A DNA stretch of 64,000 bases from Acidobacteriota bacterium (GTDB lineage: Bacteria > Acidobacteriota > Vicinamibacteria > Marinacidobacterales > Marinacidobacteraceae). Below, piece by piece: positions 429 through 34,624 of the stretch. The DNA lies in NCBI GenBank assembly GCA_009835985.1, contig VXWI01000115.1:11145-75144 (forward strand), read 5' to 3'. The translations under genes and the position numbers were made by a program. The notes under the pieces were generated by a model. That model made no database searches. It saw nothing but the letters and a program-made list of their open reading frames with translations, and was not told the origin of the DNA. Position 1 is the first letter of the stretch. Every line of letters begins with the position of its first letter.

Positions 429-516
429 GCCGGAGTGGCGGAATTGGTAGACGCACGGGACTCAAAATCCCGCGGTCCTCGTGATCATGAGGGTTCGAGT
501 CCCTCCTCCGGCACCA
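429..516 (+). tRNA. tRNA-Leu with anticodon CAA (class II, long variable arm; CCA encoded).
   Basis: Acceptor stem gccggag/ctccggc pairs perfectly. The anticodon loop is ggaCTCAAAAtcc. D-loop GGTAGA, T-loop GGTTCGAGTCC, discriminator A followed by CCA. Length 88 nt. Confidence 0.9.
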
Positions 517-11179: not shown

Positions 11180-11206
11180 GCCTGACTGCCCCGTGTGGAG
11201 AACCGC

Positions 11207-11821
11207 ATGCGGCGCCCGGGTCCCGACGGGGTGCGCGCGCGGCTTCGCGATGGTCCAGGTCCGCGGGGGCTCCGCATCAGTTCCGTGCCCTCCCCGTTCC
11301 ACTCCACGACCGTGCTGGCCGTCCGTCGCGAGGGCAGCACGACCCTGGCGGCCGACGGACAGGTCACCCTCGGGGACATCGTGGTGAAGCACGGCGCGCG
11401 CAAGCTGCGACGGATGAGCGATGGCGCGATCCTCGCCGGTTTCGCCGGGGCCACCGCGGATGCCCAGGCGCTGTTCGCGAAGTTCGAGACGAAGCTCGAA
11501 GCCCATCGGGGGAACCTCGAACGCGCGTGCGTGGAGCTCGCCCAGGACTGGCGGACCGATCGGGTGCTCCGCCATCTGGATGCCCTGCTGCTCGTGGCCG
11601 ACAAGGACCACGTCTTCCTGCTCTCGGGCGACGGGGACCTCATGCAGCCCGACGACGGCATCATGGCGATCGGCGCGGGAGCGCCCTTCGCGATGGCGGC
11701 GGCGCGCGCCCTCGCGTCCCGAACCGAACTCACCGCCCGGGAGATCGCCGAGGAGGCGATGCGCGTCACCGACGGCATCTGCATCTACACGAACGGTCAG
11801 GTGATCTACGAAGAGGTGTGA
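11207..11821 (+). CDS. hslV: ATP-dependent protease subunit HslV, with an apparent N-terminal extension before the catalytic Thr.
   Basis: TTVLAVRREG...GQVTLGDIVVKHGARKLRRM...GFAGATADAQALF...DWRTDRVLRHLDALLLVAD...AIGAGAPFAMAAARAL...CIYTN aligns along the whole length of HslV. GGAG RBS 6 nt upstream of ATG 11207; GTG 11195 also possible. The catalytic Thr codon is at 11309. Confidence 0.8.
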   Translation: MRRPGPDGVRARLRDGPGPRGLRISSVPSPFHSTTVLAVRREGSTTLAADGQVTLGDIVVKHGARKLRRMSDGAILAGFAGATADAQALFAKFETKLEAHRGNLERACVELAQDWRTDRVLRHLDALLLVADKDHVFLLSGDGDLMQPDDGIMAIGAGAPFAMAAARALASRTELTAREIAEEAMRVTDGICIYTNGQVIYEEV

Positions 11822-11845
11822 CTTCTGGTCGAGTATCTCCCCCCC

Positions 11846-13264
<1,419 letters not shown>

Positions 13265-31483: not shown

Positions 31484-31969
31484 CTATCCGCTGGGGGGAA
31501 AGAGCCGGCCGCTCCGGTTGGGCCCGGGCGCCTGCCGCCCTTGCCTTGCGGCTGCTTCCGAAGCGAGGTCATGGGCTCTTTCGTTTCCGGGGTGGCCGGC
31601 ATGGCCCGGGACCCACTCGAAACGAACGCCGGGCCGCCTGGCGCGCGCGGCGGCCAGCCGCCGCCAGAGGTCGGCGTTCTTGACCGGGCGGCGGCTCGCA
31701 GTCTGCCAGCCGCGCCGGACCCAGGACGGAAGCCACTGGGTGATGCCCTTGACCACGTACTGGCTGTCGCACGACACCGTGGCCGAGGCGCCGTCCGGCA
31801 CCGCTTCCACGGCCCGGATCGCGGCCGTGAGCTCCATGCGGTTGTTCGTGGTGTTCGGTTCACCGCCGGAGAGGACCCGTTCCTCTCCGGCATCGGTCAG
31901 GATCACCGCCGCCCACCCTCCCGGCCCGGGGTTCCCGAGGCAGGAGCCGTCGCACGCGATCTGCAACAT
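31484..31969 (-). CDS. rnhA: Ribonuclease HI.
   Basis: MLQIACDGSCLGNPGPGGWAAVI...TNNRMELTAAIRAVEA...VSCDSQYVVKGITQWLPSW...FEWVPGHAGHPGNERAHDLA carries the canonical RNase H catalytic residues. 161 aa. Confidence 0.9.
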   Translation of the reverse strand: MLQIACDGSCLGNPGPGGWAAVILTDAGEERVLSGGEPNTTNNRMELTAAIRAVEAVPDGASATVSCDSQYVVKGITQWLPSWVRRGWQTASRRPVKNADLWRRLAAARARRPGVRFEWVPGHAGHPGNERAHDLASEAAARQGRQAPGPNRSGRLFPPSG

Positions 31970-32011
31970 CCGCTGGGTATCCTATGTGGCGGGTTCCCTC
32001 TCCCCGTTCGG

Positions 32012-32569
32012 ATGTCCTGGATTCACATGGTTCCGCCCAGCGCCCCCGAGGGGCAGGCGGGGCGGCTCGGGGAGCTCTACCGGCGGCACCGCCGTCCCGA
32101 CGGACTGGTGGACAACATCCTGAGGGTGTCCAGCCTCAATCCGGAAGCGCTGGAGCACCACCTGTCGCTCTACGAGCACCTGATGCGGGGCGAATCGGGC
32201 CTCAGCCTCGCCGAACGGGAACTGATCGCGGTCGCCGTCTCGGTAGTCAACGACTGCCACTATTGAATCGAGCATCACCGGAGAGGTCTTCTCCGGCTGA
32301 CCCGGGACCCGCAACTGGTGGACGCCCTCCGCCGTGATCCGGAGGGTTGCCCGCTGGCGCCCCGCCAGCGGGCGCTCGCCGACTACGCCATCAAGCTGGC
32401 GCGGACCCCGGGCAGCCTGGTGGAGCAGGACCTCGCGCCCCTCCGAAACGTGGGACTCTCCGATCGCGACATTCACGACGCCTGTGCGGTCGCGTCCTAC
32501 TACTGCTTCGTGAACCGCATGGCGAACGGCCTGGGGGTGGAGCTGGAGGAGACGGAAGCCGGCCGGTAG
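32012..32569 (+). CDS. Carboxymuconolactone-decarboxylase/AhpD-family (peroxidase-related) protein with an in-frame UGA (32264-32266) at the active-site CxxC position; candidate selenoprotein.
   Basis: ORF 32012-32266 ends ...AVAVSVVNDCHY-TGA. The same frame continues as IEHHRRG... and joins the track ORF 32318-32569 (both in frame with 32012), giving a contiguous 185-aa CMD domain. The motif becomes VNDCHY-U-IEHH, corresponding to the family's CxxC-x3-H. Confidence 0.6.
32278..32296 (+). promoter_or_regulatory. Candidate bacterial SECIS hairpin (ccggaga-GGUCU-tctccgg), 11 nt 3' of the in-frame UGA.
   Basis: 7-bp perfect stem with apical loop GGUCU. The loop resembles the E. coli fdhF SECIS apical loop (cagGUCUg), and the 11-nt UGA-to-hairpin spacing matches it. 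Confidence 0.5.
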
Positions 32570-32680
32570 CCCGGATAGCGCACCGGCCTGGAACGCCGGT
32601 CTCCAGACCGGCACCGCGGCGCTCCGCACCGCGCACGTCGCAACCCCACCCACCCTCATGACGAGGTCCGGGAGTACGCG

Positions 32681-34624
32681 CTACGGACCTCCGGGGCCGC
32701 CCTGAACCGCGGCGTCGAGGCGTTCGAGTTCCTCGTAGAGGGCCGGCAGCCGGCTCTTCAGATCCTCGTAGGTGGCCGTGACTTCCCGGGATCCCTCGCG
32801 GTCGCCGAAGAAACCGGGCGCCGCCATCCGCGCTTCCAGGCTTTCGACGGCGGCCTCGGTGTCCGCGATCGCCTCGAACACCTCGCGCCACTCGCGCCGC
32901 AGCTGCCGCAGCCGGTTCTTCCCGGGCGGCCGGGGCGCGCCGGCCCTGCCCGCCGGCTTCGCGGTTCGCTTCGGTCGTTTCGCCGCGGCCGCTGCGGCCG
33001 CCGCGGCCGCCGGGGGAGCCGCCGCCGCGGGTTCCGGCGGCGTGACCCGCGCGAGGTAGTCCGAGTAGTTGCCCCAGTAGAGGGCCGCCCCGCCACCGCC
33101 GATCGCGGCCACCCGGGTGGCCAGCGCGTCCATGAAGTACCGGTCGTGGGCGACGAACACGATGGTGCCCTGGTAGTTCGAAAGGGCGTTCAGGAGCGCC
33201 CGCTTGGCGTCGAGGTCGAGATGGTTGGTCGGCTCGTCGAGGAGGAGGAGATTCGCGGGACGAAGGAACAGGCGGGCCAGCGCCAGACGGCTTCGTTCGC
33301 CGCCGGAGAGGACCGCCGTCTTCTTCTCCACGGTCTCTCCCGAGAACAGGAACGCACCCAGGATGTTGCGGATCTCCGGGAGCATGGCGAGCGGCGCCGC
33401 GTCGGCCATGGTCTCCCGCACCGTGCGGTCCGGATCGAGGTCGTGCCGGTCCGGCCCGTAGTAGGCGATGCGGACGTTGTGGCCCAGTTCCCGATTGCCG
33501 GCGTCCAGGCCTTCCTCACCGGCGATCAGCCGGATGAGGGTGGATTTCCCGGCGCCGTTCGGCCCGACGAGCGCCAGGCGCTGGCCGCGCTCCACGACGA
33601 GGTCCACATTCCGGAACACCTCGTTGGTCCCGAAGGCCTTGGAGACCGCGGTGAGCGTGACGAGCACCCGCCCGGAACGTGGCGGATGCGGCAGGCGCAG
33701 GGCCACCCGCCGGGGCTCGGGCGGCACCTCGATCCGCTCGATCTTCTCGAGCATGCGGACCCGGCTCTGGACCTGCCGCGCGCGGCTGGCCTGATAGCGG
33801 AACCGGTTGATGAAGCGTTCGTTCCGCTCGATCTCGGCGGCCTGCTCGGCGGCCCGCTTGCGCAGGTCGGCGATCTCGGCGGCCCGCTGGGTCTCGTAAC
33901 GACTGTAGGTGCCCGGATAGTTGCCGAGCCGGCCCAGCCCGATCTCGGTGATCCGGGTCACCACGGAGTCGAGGAAGTAGCGGTCGTGGGCGACCAGTAC
34001 CAGGCCGCCGCGGTGCCGGGCGAGGAAACCGAGCAGCCAGGTGCGGGCCTCGATGTCCAGGTAATTCGTGGGCTCGTCGAGGAGGACGAGGTCGTTCGCC
34101 TCGACGAGCAGCCGGGCGAGGGCGATGCGCATCTGCCAGCCCTGGCTGAAGGTCTCCACGGGGCGGTCCTCGTCCCCGGCCGCGAATCCCAGGCCGGAGA
34201 GGACCTCGCTGATGCGGGTGTCCATCTCGTACCCGCCCCGGCGCTGCCACTCATCTTCCAGTTCTCCGTAGCGGGCGACGAGTTCGGGCTGCTCCGGGGT
34301 CTCCGCGAGCGCGTCCGCCACCTCCTCCTGTTCGCGCCGCATCCGGAGCAGGTCGGCGAAGGCGGTCCGCACCTCCCCGGCAACGGTGCGGTCCCCGAGG
34401 CTCAGTCCCTCCTGGGGCAGGTACCCGACGCGTTTCCGCCTGGCCAGCACCACCTTTCCGGCGTCGGGACGCACCAGTCCCGCAAGGATCTTCAGTAGGG
34501 TGGTCTTGCCCGACCCGTTGGGTCCGACCAGACCGACGCGGTCGCCGTCGCCGACCTGCCAGGAGACCTCACGGAGAAGGACCTGTTCTCCGTAGGCCTT
34601 GGTGGCCTCGACGAGCTGGATCAT
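32681..34624 (-). CDS. ABC-F family ATPase (Uup-like; two ABC domains plus C-terminal coiled-coil/basic tail).
   Basis: Two Walker A motifs (GPNGSGKTTLLK; GPNGAGKSTLIR), two LSGGE signatures, no transmembrane domain, and an Ala/Lys-rich C-terminal extension. 647 aa. Confidence 0.85.
   Translation of the reverse strand: MIQLVEATKAYGEQVLLREVSWQVGDGDRVGLVGPNGSGKTTLLKILAGLVRPDAGKVVLARRKRVGYLPQEGLSLGDRTVAGEVRTAFADLLRMRREQEEVADALAETPEQPELVARYGELEDEWQRRGGYEMDTRISEVLSGLGFAAGDEDRPVETFSQGWQMRIALARLLVEANDLVLLDEPTNYLDIEARTWLLGFLARHRGGLVLVAHDRYFLDSVVTRITEIGLGRLGNYPGTYSRYETQRAAEIADLRKRAAEQAAEIERNERFINRFRYQASRARQVQSRVRMLEKIERIEVPPEPRRVALRLPHPPRSGRVLVTLTAVSKAFGTNEVFRNVDLVVERGQRLALVGPNGAGKSTLIRLIAGEEGLDAGNRELGHNVRIAYYGPDRHDLDPDRTVRETMADAAPLAMLPEIRNILGAFLFSGETVEKKTAVLSGGERSRLALARLFLRPANLLLLDEPTNHLDLDAKRALLNALSNYQGTIVFVAHDRYFMDALATRVAAIGGGGAALYWGNYSDYLARVTPPEPAAAAPPAAAAAAAAAAKRPKRTAKPAGRAGAPRPPGKNRLRQLRREWREVFEAIADTEAAVESLEARMAAPGFFGDREGSREVTATYEDLKSRLPALYEELERLDAAVQGGPGGP

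What the first reader, a model, noticed from the sequence alone, without database searches (positions are those of the whole stretch)
32012..32569. AhpD/CMD-family gene with in-frame UGA at the catalytic Cys position plus a downstream SECIS-like hairpin: candidate selenoprotein
Two track ORFs, 31541-32266 and 32318-32569, are in the same frame as ATG 32012 and are separated only by a TGA at 32264-32266. Reading through it gives one 185-aa CMD-domain protein. The TGA sits exactly where the second Cys of the family's CxxC-x3-H motif is expected, giving VNDCHY-U-IEHH. A perfect 7-bp hairpin with a GGUCU apical loop begins 11 nt after the UGA. The loop and spacing resemble the E. coli fdhF SECIS. 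Sec-containing AhpD-like proteins are a known but rare selenoprotein class, and a Sec at the resolving position would change the redox chemistry of this peroxidase-related enzyme. The locus would otherwise be annotated as two fragments or a pseudogene.
Basis: partly seen in the sequence, partly recalled or inferred. Interest (0 to 1): 0.8.

Follow-up and report, generated by a model that had tools for sequence, protein, structure and literature searches.

The report
Selenocysteine-containing AhpD-like redox protein gene
This is one intact gene for a small antioxidant-type enzyme whose internal "stop" codon almost certainly encodes selenocysteine; the enzyme family has been known to do this since 2005, so the finding is a sound annotation fix and not a discovery.

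Summary
ATG 32012 to TAG 32569 is one 185-codon frame with a single TGA at 32264-32266. A perfect 7-bp hairpin with a GGUCU loop starts 11 nt after that TGA.

The read-through product is a clear TIGR01926 "peroxidase-related" AhpD-like protein. The TGA falls on an invariant Cys column, the second Cys of E-x11-C-x2-C-x3-H.

At least 20 related Acidobacteriota (Vicinamibacteria) sequences, mostly from sponge, coral and marine samples, keep the TGA at the same codon. There are no indels. dN/dS is about 0.11 before the TGA and 0.15 after it.

The hairpin is retained in all of them. Its loop is invariant, its closing pair switches A-U to G-C, and its synonymous sites are unusually frozen. GGUCU sits at the same offset (+18) as in E. 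coli fdhF.

Pseudogene, split gene, sequencing error and codon reassignment are each contradicted. The one untested point is whether selA/selB/selC/selD are present, because none lies in the DNA I could reach.

CxxU AhpD-like (COG2128/TIGR01926) selenoproteins were described in 2005 and are abundant in marine metagenomes. This is a new member of a known kind.

The parts
32012..32569 (+). Complete coding sequence of a 185-residue AhpD-like (TIGR01926) selenoprotein. It runs from ATG 32012 to TAG 32567-32569, with Sec at codon 85.
   Evidence: Single frame with one internal TGA. TIGR01926 146 bits, profile positions 19-174 of 178. Solved homologues align across residues 27-175, spanning the TGA. 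The N-terminus MSWI(H/R) is conserved as far as a Flavobacteriaceae homologue, which supports the start at 32012.
32219..32221 (+). Codon for Glu70, the proton-relay glutamate (E-x11-C).
   Evidence: Invariant column E70 in the 27-sequence family alignment. It corresponds to Glu118 of MtbAhpD by motif spacing (PMC3141380).
32255..32257 (+). Codon for Cys82, the first Cys of the CxxU redox centre. It is expected to form the selenenylsulfide with Sec85.
   Evidence: Invariant column C82. TGC in all orthologues.
32264..32266 (+). In-frame TGA, inferred to be a selenocysteine codon (residue 85).
   Evidence: TGA in all 17 genome orthologues and in 5 more metagenomic sequences. It aligns with an invariant Cys column.
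32267..32277 (+). 11-nt spacer between the UGA and the hairpin. It encodes Ile86-Glu87-His88 and part of His89.
   Evidence: Same spacer length as between the fdhF UGA and its upper stem-loop. Its only substitutions among relatives are synonymous: GAG/GAA and CAT/CAC.
32276..32278 (+). Codon for His89, the proton-relay histidine (U-x3-H).
   Evidence: Invariant column H89.
32278..32296 (+). SECIS-like hairpin. 5' arm 32278-32284 (CCGGAGA), apical loop 32285-32289 (GGUCU), 3' arm 32290-32296 (UCUCCGG). It lies within codons 89-95 (H-RRGLLR).
   Evidence: -10.7 kcal/mol, loop 5 nt, stem 7 bp, GG at the loop start, 18 nt from the UGA: all four bSECIS criteria are met (criteria from PMC13188914). 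97.3% of cells paired across relatives. Closing pair AU:6, GC:6, GU:2, other:2. Loop invariant. Four-fold sites frozen, 3 of 6 against 2 of 47, p = 0.008.

Best explanation
32012-32569 is one functional gene for a selenocysteine-containing AhpD-like thiol/selenol oxidoreductase.

[quoted passage not shown] UGA is then read as Sec instead of stop, and translation continues to TAG 32567.

Inferred chemistry: the product has the AhpD proton-relay active site E70 / C82-H-Y-U85 / H89, with Sec in place of the second, solvent-exposed, attacking cysteine. It would attack an oxidised partner, most likely a peroxiredoxin-type sulfenate or disulfide, or weakly a hydroperoxide directly. Cys82 would then resolve it into an intramolecular selenenylsulfide, which a cellular reductant re-reduces.

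Shown here: the gene architecture, family membership, Cys/UGA correspondence, conservation, purifying selection and RNA-level constraint.

Inferred only: actual Se incorporation, SelB dependence, the redox partner and the catalytic advantage.
For: 1. Family. TIGR01926 146 bits (cutoff 81.8) and CMD 63.7 bits. PDB homologues 3c1l (1e-31), 2pfx, 2oyo and 6k40 align across the TGA and have Cys at that position.
2. The UGA column is invariant Cys in a 27-sequence alignment, together with E70, C82 and H89. 26 of 27 full-length homologues have Cys there.
3. TGA is at the identical codon in 17 of 17 orthologous loci at 74-94% amino-acid identity, in L030/L032 (about 72-75%), in L033 (about 50%; ACHY-U-VQHH) and in L035/L036. 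There are no indels and exactly one internal stop in each.
4. Median dN/dS is 0.109 upstream and 0.146 downstream, at dS of about 0.65-0.8.
5. In the 17 codons right after the TGA, variable columns fall 3/3/13 by codon position. Fourteen residues are invariant while 10 codons vary only synonymously, including Arg CGG<->AGA.
6. Hairpin. The loop GGTCT is invariant. The closing pair switches A-U to G-C through G-U in several sub-lineages. Slid controls pair only 29-70% of cells against 97%. Four-fold sites in the SECIS zone are invariant at 3 of 6 against 2 of 47 elsewhere, Fisher p = 0.008. GGT, the rarest Gly codon in three neighbouring genes, is fixed in all 18.
7. The register matches E. coli fdhF: UGA + 11 nt + 7-nt arm + GGUCU. 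All four published bSECIS criteria are met (PMC13188914).
8. L033 has a different-sequence hairpin (ACGGAGC-GGG-GCUCCGU) at the same offset.
9. The family is a catalogued CxxU selenoprotein family (PMC1088965, PMC2398784, PMC13188914). Acidobacteria include Sec users (PMC1794560).
Against: No Sec machinery was seen. There is no tRNA-Sec in the window, and no SelA/SelB/SelD homologue or tRNA-Sec in about 0.38 Mb of held sequence.

Hairpin stability is not above shuffles. SECIS-like hairpins follow 14% of random TGAs in this G+C-rich DNA. G+C-rich Cys homologues also fold strongly in the same region. The structure therefore counts only through its conservation.

Covariation rests on a single pair. 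The hairpin has no 5' bulged U like the one in fdhF. No peroxiredoxin partner gene is adjacent: the neighbours are RNase HI and an ABC-F ATPase on the opposite strand. There is no experimental evidence of Se incorporation.
Confidence: 0.9

Rival explanations
1. UGA 32264 is recoded, but to a residue other than Sec. One route is cysteine delivered by a tRNA-Sec-like tRNA-Cys(UCA) with a SelB paralogue (the selC*/SelB* system). Another is Cys or Trp inserted by near-cognate read-through when selenium is scarce.
For: A SelB-dependent UGA-to-Cys route has been described in Deltaproteobacteria and a few other phyla, and unusual tRNA-Sec-like tRNAs occur in Acidobacteria (PMC5389517). Everything I measured (conserved UGA, SECIS, purifying selection) fits any SECIS-dependent recoding equally well. 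No tRNA-Sec or selA/selD could be shown.
Against: selC* genes were reported from Firmicutes, Thermodesulfobacteria, Nitrospirae and Proteobacteria, not Acidobacteria. The acidobacterial allo-tRNAs are a different class. A lineage needing only Cys would be expected to fix TGC/TGT, as all distant homologues have. Keeping a costly UGA in more than 20 genomes argues for Sec. The family is an established Sec family (PMC13188914).
Confidence: 0.04
2. Split gene. The N-terminal 84 residues and a C-terminal 83-residue protein started at GTG 32318 are made separately and assemble. This is the way gene callers annotate the locus.
For: Automatic gene calls on seven public contigs give exactly these two products. 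ORF 32318..32569 has a GTG start.
Against: The 17 codons between the TGA and GTG 32318 evolve as coding sequence. Variable columns fall 3/3/13 by codon position, and 14 residues are invariant with only synonymous changes, including CGG<->AGA. This stretch holds the invariant catalytic His89, which neither fragment would contain. GTG 32318 is GTC in two orthologues. Solved homologues are single chains spanning the site.
Confidence: 0.02
3. Pseudogene. A nonsense mutation (TGC/TGT to TGA) inactivated an ordinary Cys-containing AhpD-like gene.
For: A single-base change from TGC or TGT gives TGA. No Sec genes were seen nearby.
Against: The same TGA is retained in more than 20 sequences whose synonymous divergence reaches dS > 1. 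There are no frameshifts or second stops, and dN/dS downstream is 0.146, the same order as upstream at 0.109.
Confidence: 0.01
4. Sequencing or assembly error at 32264-32266, or a genome in which TGA is reassigned to a sense codon.
For: None beyond the bare possibility in a metagenome-derived sequence.
Against: There is an identical TGA in independent assemblies from NCBI, ENA, JGI and Logan, including long-read closed chromosomes. TGA is the commonest ordinary stop codon in the window, at 15 of 29 long coding-like ORFs; for example, it ends hslV at 11819.
Confidence: 0.005

Closest known systems
AhpD-like selenoprotein family (COG2128 / TIGR01926, 'AhpD-like 1', CxxU motif), from Zhang, Fomenko & Gladyshev 2005 (Sargasso Sea) and Zhang & Gladyshev 2008 (GOS)
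   Same: Same protein family by HMM. Same Sec position, the second position of CxxC giving CxxU. SECIS immediately downstream inside the ORF, with G at the start of a small apical loop. Marine setting. The family is listed as 'AhpD-like protein, TIGR01926, CxxU' in a 2026 review (PMC13188914), with 27 sequences in the Sargasso Sea data (PMC1088965) and 299 in GOS (PMC2398784).
   Different: The host lineage differs: a clade of mostly sponge-, coral- and marine-associated Acidobacteriota (Vicinamibacteria, 'Ca. Marinacidobacterium'). I found no report of selenoproteins for it in the searchable library. In the public gene calls I saw, it is split into two fragments. Nothing about the protein itself departs from the family.
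E. coli fdhF SECIS (formate dehydrogenase H)
   Same: UGA, then an 11-nt spacer, then a 7-nt 5' arm, then GGUCU. The GGUC(U) loop sits at exactly the same offset from the UGA in both. From my own knowledge (Liu et al. 1998), the minimal E. coli element is the 17-nt upper stem-loop placed 11 nt from the UGA.
   Different: The stem sequence is unrelated. It is a perfect 7-bp helix without the 5' bulged U of fdhF. The covarying pair supports a 5-nt GGUCU loop rather than an A-U-closed GGUC tetraloop. The extended lower stem seen in fdhF is not conserved here.
Mycobacterium tuberculosis AhpD (TIGR00777), the characterised AhpC reductase
   Same: Same proton-relay signature E-x11-C-x2-C-x3-H (Glu118/Cys130/Cys133/His137 against E70/C82/U85/H89, PMC3141380). 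Same CMD/AhpD helical core domain.
   Different: It is not an orthologue: TIGR00777 scores 19.8 bits against a cutoff of 191.95. It has Sec instead of the attacking Cys. No ahpC is adjacent, so the redox partner is unknown.
NF041238 AhpD_rel_CFYUT 'alkylhydroperoxidase-related (seleno)protein' and NF041047 'distant AhpD homolog' selenoproteins
   Same: AhpD-type domain with Sec at the second position of CxxU (PMC13188914).
   Different: They are different families: NF041238 scores 44.9 bits against a cutoff of 175, and is a 357-position two-domain model matched only in its C-terminal half.

Membership tests
Bacterial selenoprotein gene (SECIS-dependent Sec-UGA) | In-frame UGA that aligns with Cys in non-selenoprotein homologues (Sec/Cys pair) | tested here: met
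   Invariant Cys column C85 in 27 sequences. 26 of 27 full-length homologues have Cys. TGC in L018-L020 and L037-L043. Cys in PDB homologues.
Bacterial selenoprotein gene (SECIS-dependent Sec-UGA) | UGA-containing orthologues in other organisms, with the downstream ORF under purifying selection | tested here: met
   TGA in 17 of 17 orthologues plus L030, L032, L033, L035 and L036. dN/dS is 0.146 downstream and 0.109 upstream. Codon-position pattern of 3/3/13 immediately after the TGA.
Bacterial selenoprotein gene (SECIS-dependent Sec-UGA) | bSECIS consensus: apical loop 3-9 nt, upper stem 4-16 bp, G in the first two loop positions, 16-37 nt between UGA and loop, MFE <= -7.5 kcal/mol (PMC13188914) | tested here: met
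   Loop 5 nt (GGUCU), stem 7 bp, 18 nt spacing, -10.7 kcal/mol. Caveat: 14% of random TGAs in this window also pass. Specificity comes from conservation.
Bacterial selenoprotein gene (SECIS-dependent Sec-UGA) | selA, selB, selC (tRNA-Sec) and selD present in the same genome | not testable with these tools
   None in the 64-kb window or in about 0.38 Mb of related loci. The rest of the genome is out of reach.
Bacterial selenoprotein gene (SECIS-dependent Sec-UGA) | Selenium actually incorporated at the UGA position | not testable with these tools
   Needs 75Se labelling or mass spectrometry.
TIGR01926 peroxidase-related enzyme / COG2128 AhpD-like | Whole-protein HMM score above the curated cutoff | tested here: met
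   146 bits against 81.8, profile positions 19-174 of 178. Pfam CMD 63.7 bits against 23.
TIGR01926 peroxidase-related enzyme / COG2128 AhpD-like | Proton-relay motif E-x11-C-x2-C-x3-H | tested here: met
   E70, C82, U85 (in place of C) and H89, all invariant columns. Motif definition from PMC3141380.
TIGR01926 peroxidase-related enzyme / COG2128 AhpD-like | Single all-helical AhpD-like domain spanning the motif | tested here: met
   Tested by sequence only. Solved structures 3c1l (1e-31), 2pfx (6e-28), 2oyo and 6k40 align over residues 20/30-176.
TIGR01926 peroxidase-related enzyme / COG2128 AhpD-like | Peroxidase or peroxiredoxin-reductase activity | not testable with these tools
   Biochemical assay. 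No adjacent peroxiredoxin gene offers a contextual hint.
Canonical AhpD (TIGR00777, M. tuberculosis type) | HMM score above the cutoff | tested here: not met
   19.8 bits against 191.95. It shares the mechanism motif but is not a member.
NF041238 AhpD_rel_CFYUT (seleno)protein | HMM score above the cutoff and a CFYUT motif | tested here: not met
   44.9 bits against 175. The motif here is CHYUI.
E. coli fdhF-type SECIS | GGUC-containing apical loop with the upper stem starting 11 nt after the UGA | tested here: met
   Side-by-side comparison with the fdhF sequence from NC_000913.3.
E. coli fdhF-type SECIS | Bulged U in the 5' arm of the upper stem | tested here: not met
   Perfect 7-bp helix. 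The only bulged-U alternative places the bulge on the 3' side and is not the register supported by covariation.

The most novel reading that the evidence does not exclude
The conserved UGA plus SECIS might be decoded in this acidobacterial lineage not as Sec, or not only as Sec, but as Cys through a SelB-type factor and a tRNA-Sec-like tRNA-Cys(UCA). This would resemble the selC*/SelB* system of Deltaproteobacteria. Insertion of Sec or Cys might also switch with selenium supply inside the sponge host. My sequence evidence cannot tell Sec from any other SECIS-dependent insertion, and I could not inspect the tRNA or sel gene set.
Probability: 0.04. Interest if true: 0.6.

Novelty: new member of a known kind. 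Interest (0 to 1): 0.25.

Why it matters
Practical value: the gene is mis-annotated as two fragments in the public gene calls I saw. Correcting it restores a full-length redox enzyme. It also flags a whole clade of sponge-, coral- and marine-associated Acidobacteriota as probable selenocysteine users, which bears on their trace-element needs and oxidative-stress defence inside hosts.

Technical value: the SECIS matches E. coli fdhF in loop sequence and spacing. The gene may therefore be expressible as a selenoprotein in E. coli without engineering, giving a convenient system to compare Sec and Cys at the attacking position of an AhpD-type active site.

It does not change what is known about selenoproteins or AhpD enzymes.

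Tried and rejected
1. Sec machinery. ARAGORN and Rfam on the window found only tRNA-Leu and tRNA-Met. tblastn with E. coli SelA, SelB and SelD, plus ARAGORN, found nothing in the window or any held locus. This is uninformative for the whole genome. I judged a protein-database search with E. coli SelA or SelD unlikely to surface acidobacterial homologues or to link them to this genome, so I did not spend it.

2. Other selenoprotein genes in the window, as indirect proof of the trait. A scan for in-frame TGA with coding-like composition on both sides gave only ordinary adjacent genes (hslV/hslU at 11819, plus 17761 and 46372) besides 32264. The other three strong GGUC hairpins after a TGA are out of frame.

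3. Rfam. There was no relevant family at gathering or permissive thresholds.

4. Thermodynamic significance of the hairpin. Not significant. I rejected it as stand-alone evidence.

5. Structure prediction of the read-through protein. The tool rejects the in-frame stop and the Cys-substituted sequence.

6. Testing whether a U-containing full-length protein is already deposited. The tool rejects 'U'.

7. Metagenome scan with the family alignment failed because no stretch was conserved enough. With the single protein it gave only 2 more Sec members and 7 Cys homologues.

8. P0007, with Gly at the Cys column, was suspected to be a TGA translated under code 25. It is a genuine GGT in three contigs.

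9. Literature searches for selenoproteins in sponge symbionts or Vicinamibacteria returned nothing relevant.

Full report
**Observation**

ORFs 31541..32266 and 32318..32569 are on the + strand in the frame of ATG 32012. Translating 32012-32569 gives 185 residues with one internal stop, in the context VNDCHY*IEHH.

Direct reading places the TGA at 32264-32266. An 11-nt spacer follows (32267-32277). Then comes a perfect hairpin: CCGGAGA (32278-32284), GGTCT (32285-32289), TCTCCGG (32290-32296).

**What the protein is**

With Cys in place of the stop, the product scores 146 bits on NCBIfam TIGR01926 "peroxidase-related enzyme" (cutoff 81.8). The match covers profile positions 19-174 of 178. It scores 63.7 bits on Pfam CMD.

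It is not a canonical AhpD: TIGR00777 scores 19.8 against 191.95. It is also not the NF041238 CFYUT selenoprotein: 44.9 against 175.

Solved structures of the same subfamily align over residues about 20-176. These are 3c1l at 1e-31, plus 2pfx, 2oyo and 6k40. The alignment runs straight across the TGA and puts Cys opposite it.

In an alignment with 26 full-length database homologues, the invariant columns are R69, E70, S77, N80, C82, C85 (the TGA), H89, N168 and R169. This is the E-x11-C-x2-C-x3-H proton-relay signature defined for M. tuberculosis AhpD (Glu118/Cys130/Cys133/His137) and for PA0269 (PMC3141380).

Of 27 full-length homologues, 26 have Cys at this column. The exception, P0007, has a genuine GGT codon in three contigs.

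**Conservation of the UGA**

A scan of one genome per species returned 17 orthologous loci at 74-94% identity. All are from Acidobacteriota, Vicinamibacteria or "Ca. Marinacidobacterium" MAGs. Many isolate names point to sponge or coral samples, and several loci lie on closed chromosomes.

Every one has TGA at the identical codon. The next relatives, at 31-36% identity, have TGC.

Four truncated database proteins end or begin at or within one residue of this position. Three of their contigs show further TGA-containing members:
- L030 and L032, at about 72-75% identity.
- L033, at about 50% identity, with ACHY-U-VQHH.

The fourth, L034, does not show a TGA; it is described under "Noticed in passing".

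Two more members came from metagenome contigs. The exact C-terminal fragment of the window occurs on seven public contigs, where gene callers split the gene into pieces of 79-84 aa and 83 aa.

**Is the downstream part translated?**

- Across the 18 aligned genes there are no indels and exactly one internal stop each.
- Median pairwise dN/dS is 0.109 for codons 1-84 and 0.146 for codons 86-178, at dS of about 0.65-0.8.
- In the 17 codons between the TGA and the GTG at 32318, variable columns fall 3, 3 and 13 at codon positions 1, 2 and 3.
- The first 14 of those residues are invariant in 20 sequences, while 10 codons vary only synonymously. This includes the multi-base Arg change CGG<->AGA.
- The GTG itself is GTC in two genomes.

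This excludes both a pseudogene and a two-polypeptide split gene. The stretch also contains the catalytic His89.

TGA is otherwise the commonest stop codon in the window, at 15 of 29 long coding-like ORFs. It ends hslV at 11819. A reassigned code is therefore excluded.

**The hairpin**

Taken alone it is weak evidence:
- The region folds no better than shuffles (z = 0.17).
- 14% of all 1225 TGA triplets in this 69% G+C window are followed by a hairpin that meets the published bSECIS criteria.
- G+C-rich Cys homologues also fold strongly in the same region.

It does satisfy all four criteria from PMC13188914. Those are a loop of 3-9 nt, a stem of 4-16 bp, G in the first two loop positions, 16-37 nt from the UGA, and MFE of -7.5 kcal/mol or lower. 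Here the values are a 5-nt loop, a 7-bp stem, GG, 18 nt and -10.7 kcal/mol.

Its evolutionary behaviour is what counts:
- The loop GGTCT is invariant.
- 97.3% of cells pair, against 29-70% when partners are slid.
- The closing pair 32284/32290 is A-U in 6, G-C in 6, G-U in 2 and unpaired in 2 of 16 distinct sequences. The states are interleaved among close relatives, which suggests repeated changes.
- L030 and L032 add a G-C to G-U change.
- L033 has a different-sequence hairpin at the same offset.
- Among residue-invariant four-fold codons, 3 of 6 in the UGA-to-hairpin zone are frozen at the third position, against 2 of 47 elsewhere (Fisher p = 0.008).
- The loop codon GGT is the rarest Gly codon in three neighbouring genes, yet it is fixed in all 18.

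Compared with E. coli fdhF taken from NC_000913.3, the register is identical. fdhF reads UGA + 11 nt + GGUUGCA + GGUCU. This gene reads UGA + 11 nt + CCGGAGA + GGUCU. The 5' bulged U of fdhF is absent.

Only 4 of 1225 TGAs in the window are followed by a stem of at least 7 bp with a GGUC loop. The other three are out of frame.

**Mechanism**

The best explanation is standard bacterial Sec insertion. SelB carrying Sec-tRNA(Sec) binds the hairpin and decodes UGA 32264. The product is a 185-residue AhpD-like oxidoreductase with a C82-x-x-U85 centre.

In MtbAhpD the second Cys (Cys133) is the exposed residue that attacks AhpC Cys61, and Cys130 is partially buried (PMC6626918). By homology, Sec occupies the attacking position and not the resolving one, as is usual for selenoenzymes. 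In Burkholderia AhpD the first Cys was reported as more important (same paper), so the assignment is an inference.

No peroxiredoxin gene is adjacent. The gene stands alone between RNase HI (31484-31969, minus strand) and an ABC-F ATPase (32681-34624, minus strand).

**What could not be shown**

There is no tRNA-Sec, selA, selB or selD in the window or in about 0.38 Mb of related DNA.

The phylum does contain Sec users (PMC1794560). A SelB-dependent UGA-to-Cys system exists elsewhere (PMC5389517) and cannot be formally excluded.

**Comparison with what is known**

CxxU AhpD-like (COG2128) selenoproteins were discovered in the Sargasso Sea data, with 27 sequences (PMC1088965). They ranked fourth in abundance in GOS, with 299 sequences (PMC2398784). 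They are catalogued as "AhpD-like protein, TIGR01926, CxxU" (PMC13188914).

The locus is therefore a new, currently mis-annotated member of a known selenoprotein family, in a lineage for which I found no prior report. A specialist would not be surprised.

**Verdict**

| Item | Result |
|---|---|
| Observation | confirmed |
| Confidence that this is a genuine selenoprotein gene | about 0.9 |
| Novelty | new member of a known kind |
| Interest | 0.25 |

Noticed in passing
window 32594-32612 (within 32567-32640): A 7-bp G+C-rich hairpin (GCCGGUC-UCCA-GACCGGC) lies about 25 nt after the TAG stop, with two further stems nearby. It sits between the convergent AhpD-like and ABC-F genes. There is no T-run and the terminator scan does not call it. 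It folds only modestly better than shuffles (z = -1.22). It may be a bidirectional terminator of a non-canonical type.
   Followed up: partly
L044-L046 (protein P0007): A TIGR01926 homologue at 41% identity has a genuine GGT (Gly) codon at the otherwise invariant second-Cys column (CEYGLTHH). It is identical in three contigs from different samples. This is a natural variant lacking the attacking Cys, not a hidden Sec codon.
   Followed up: yes
L033:1681-2214: This is a much more divergent TGA-containing family member, at about 50% identity, with motif ACHY-U-VQHH. Its hairpin has a different sequence (ACGGAGC-GGG-GCUCCGU) at the same offset. The gene caller split it into 72 aa plus 104 aa. I did not determine whether its Sec arose independently of the Vicinamibacteria clade.
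   Followed up: partly
L034:1121-1444 (protein P0032): This is a C-terminal AhpD-like fragment beginning TVVHH, at the column of the Sec/Cys. It has no recognisable in-frame N-terminal half and no TGA immediately upstream. It lies next to a cytochrome P460 gene and pentose-phosphate genes. It may be a truncated or rearranged copy.
   Followed up: partly
L030:581-889 and L032:4622-4948: Gene callers give these orthologues N-terminal extensions with a repetitive (G[KR]TA)n-like peptide (TAGKTAGKTAGRTA) upstream of the conserved WIETV start region. This is probably a mis-called start.
   Followed up: no
window 11195-13264: An hslV-hslU protease operon. The hslV stop is a TGA at 11819 and hslU starts at 11846. 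It surfaced as a false candidate in the in-frame-TGA scan.
   Followed up: yes
window 31970-32011: Only 42 nt separate the divergent RNase HI start (31969, minus strand) from the AhpD-like ATG (32012). No sigma-70-like promoter was found in 31800-32800, and I saw no obvious Shine-Dalgarno sequence upstream of the ATG. Any promoter must overlap the neighbouring coding sequence or be of a non-sigma-70 consensus type.
   Followed up: no
window 429-516 and 1863-1939: tRNA-Leu(CAA) on the + strand and tRNA-Met(CAT) on the - strand are the only tRNAs in the window. Neither is tRNA-Sec.
   Followed up: yes
The word-indexed protein search did not list the exact 83-aa and 79-84-aa fragments of this very gene, although they are in the collection by exact look-up. 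The absence of a full-length call among its hits is therefore not proof that none exists.
   Followed up: no
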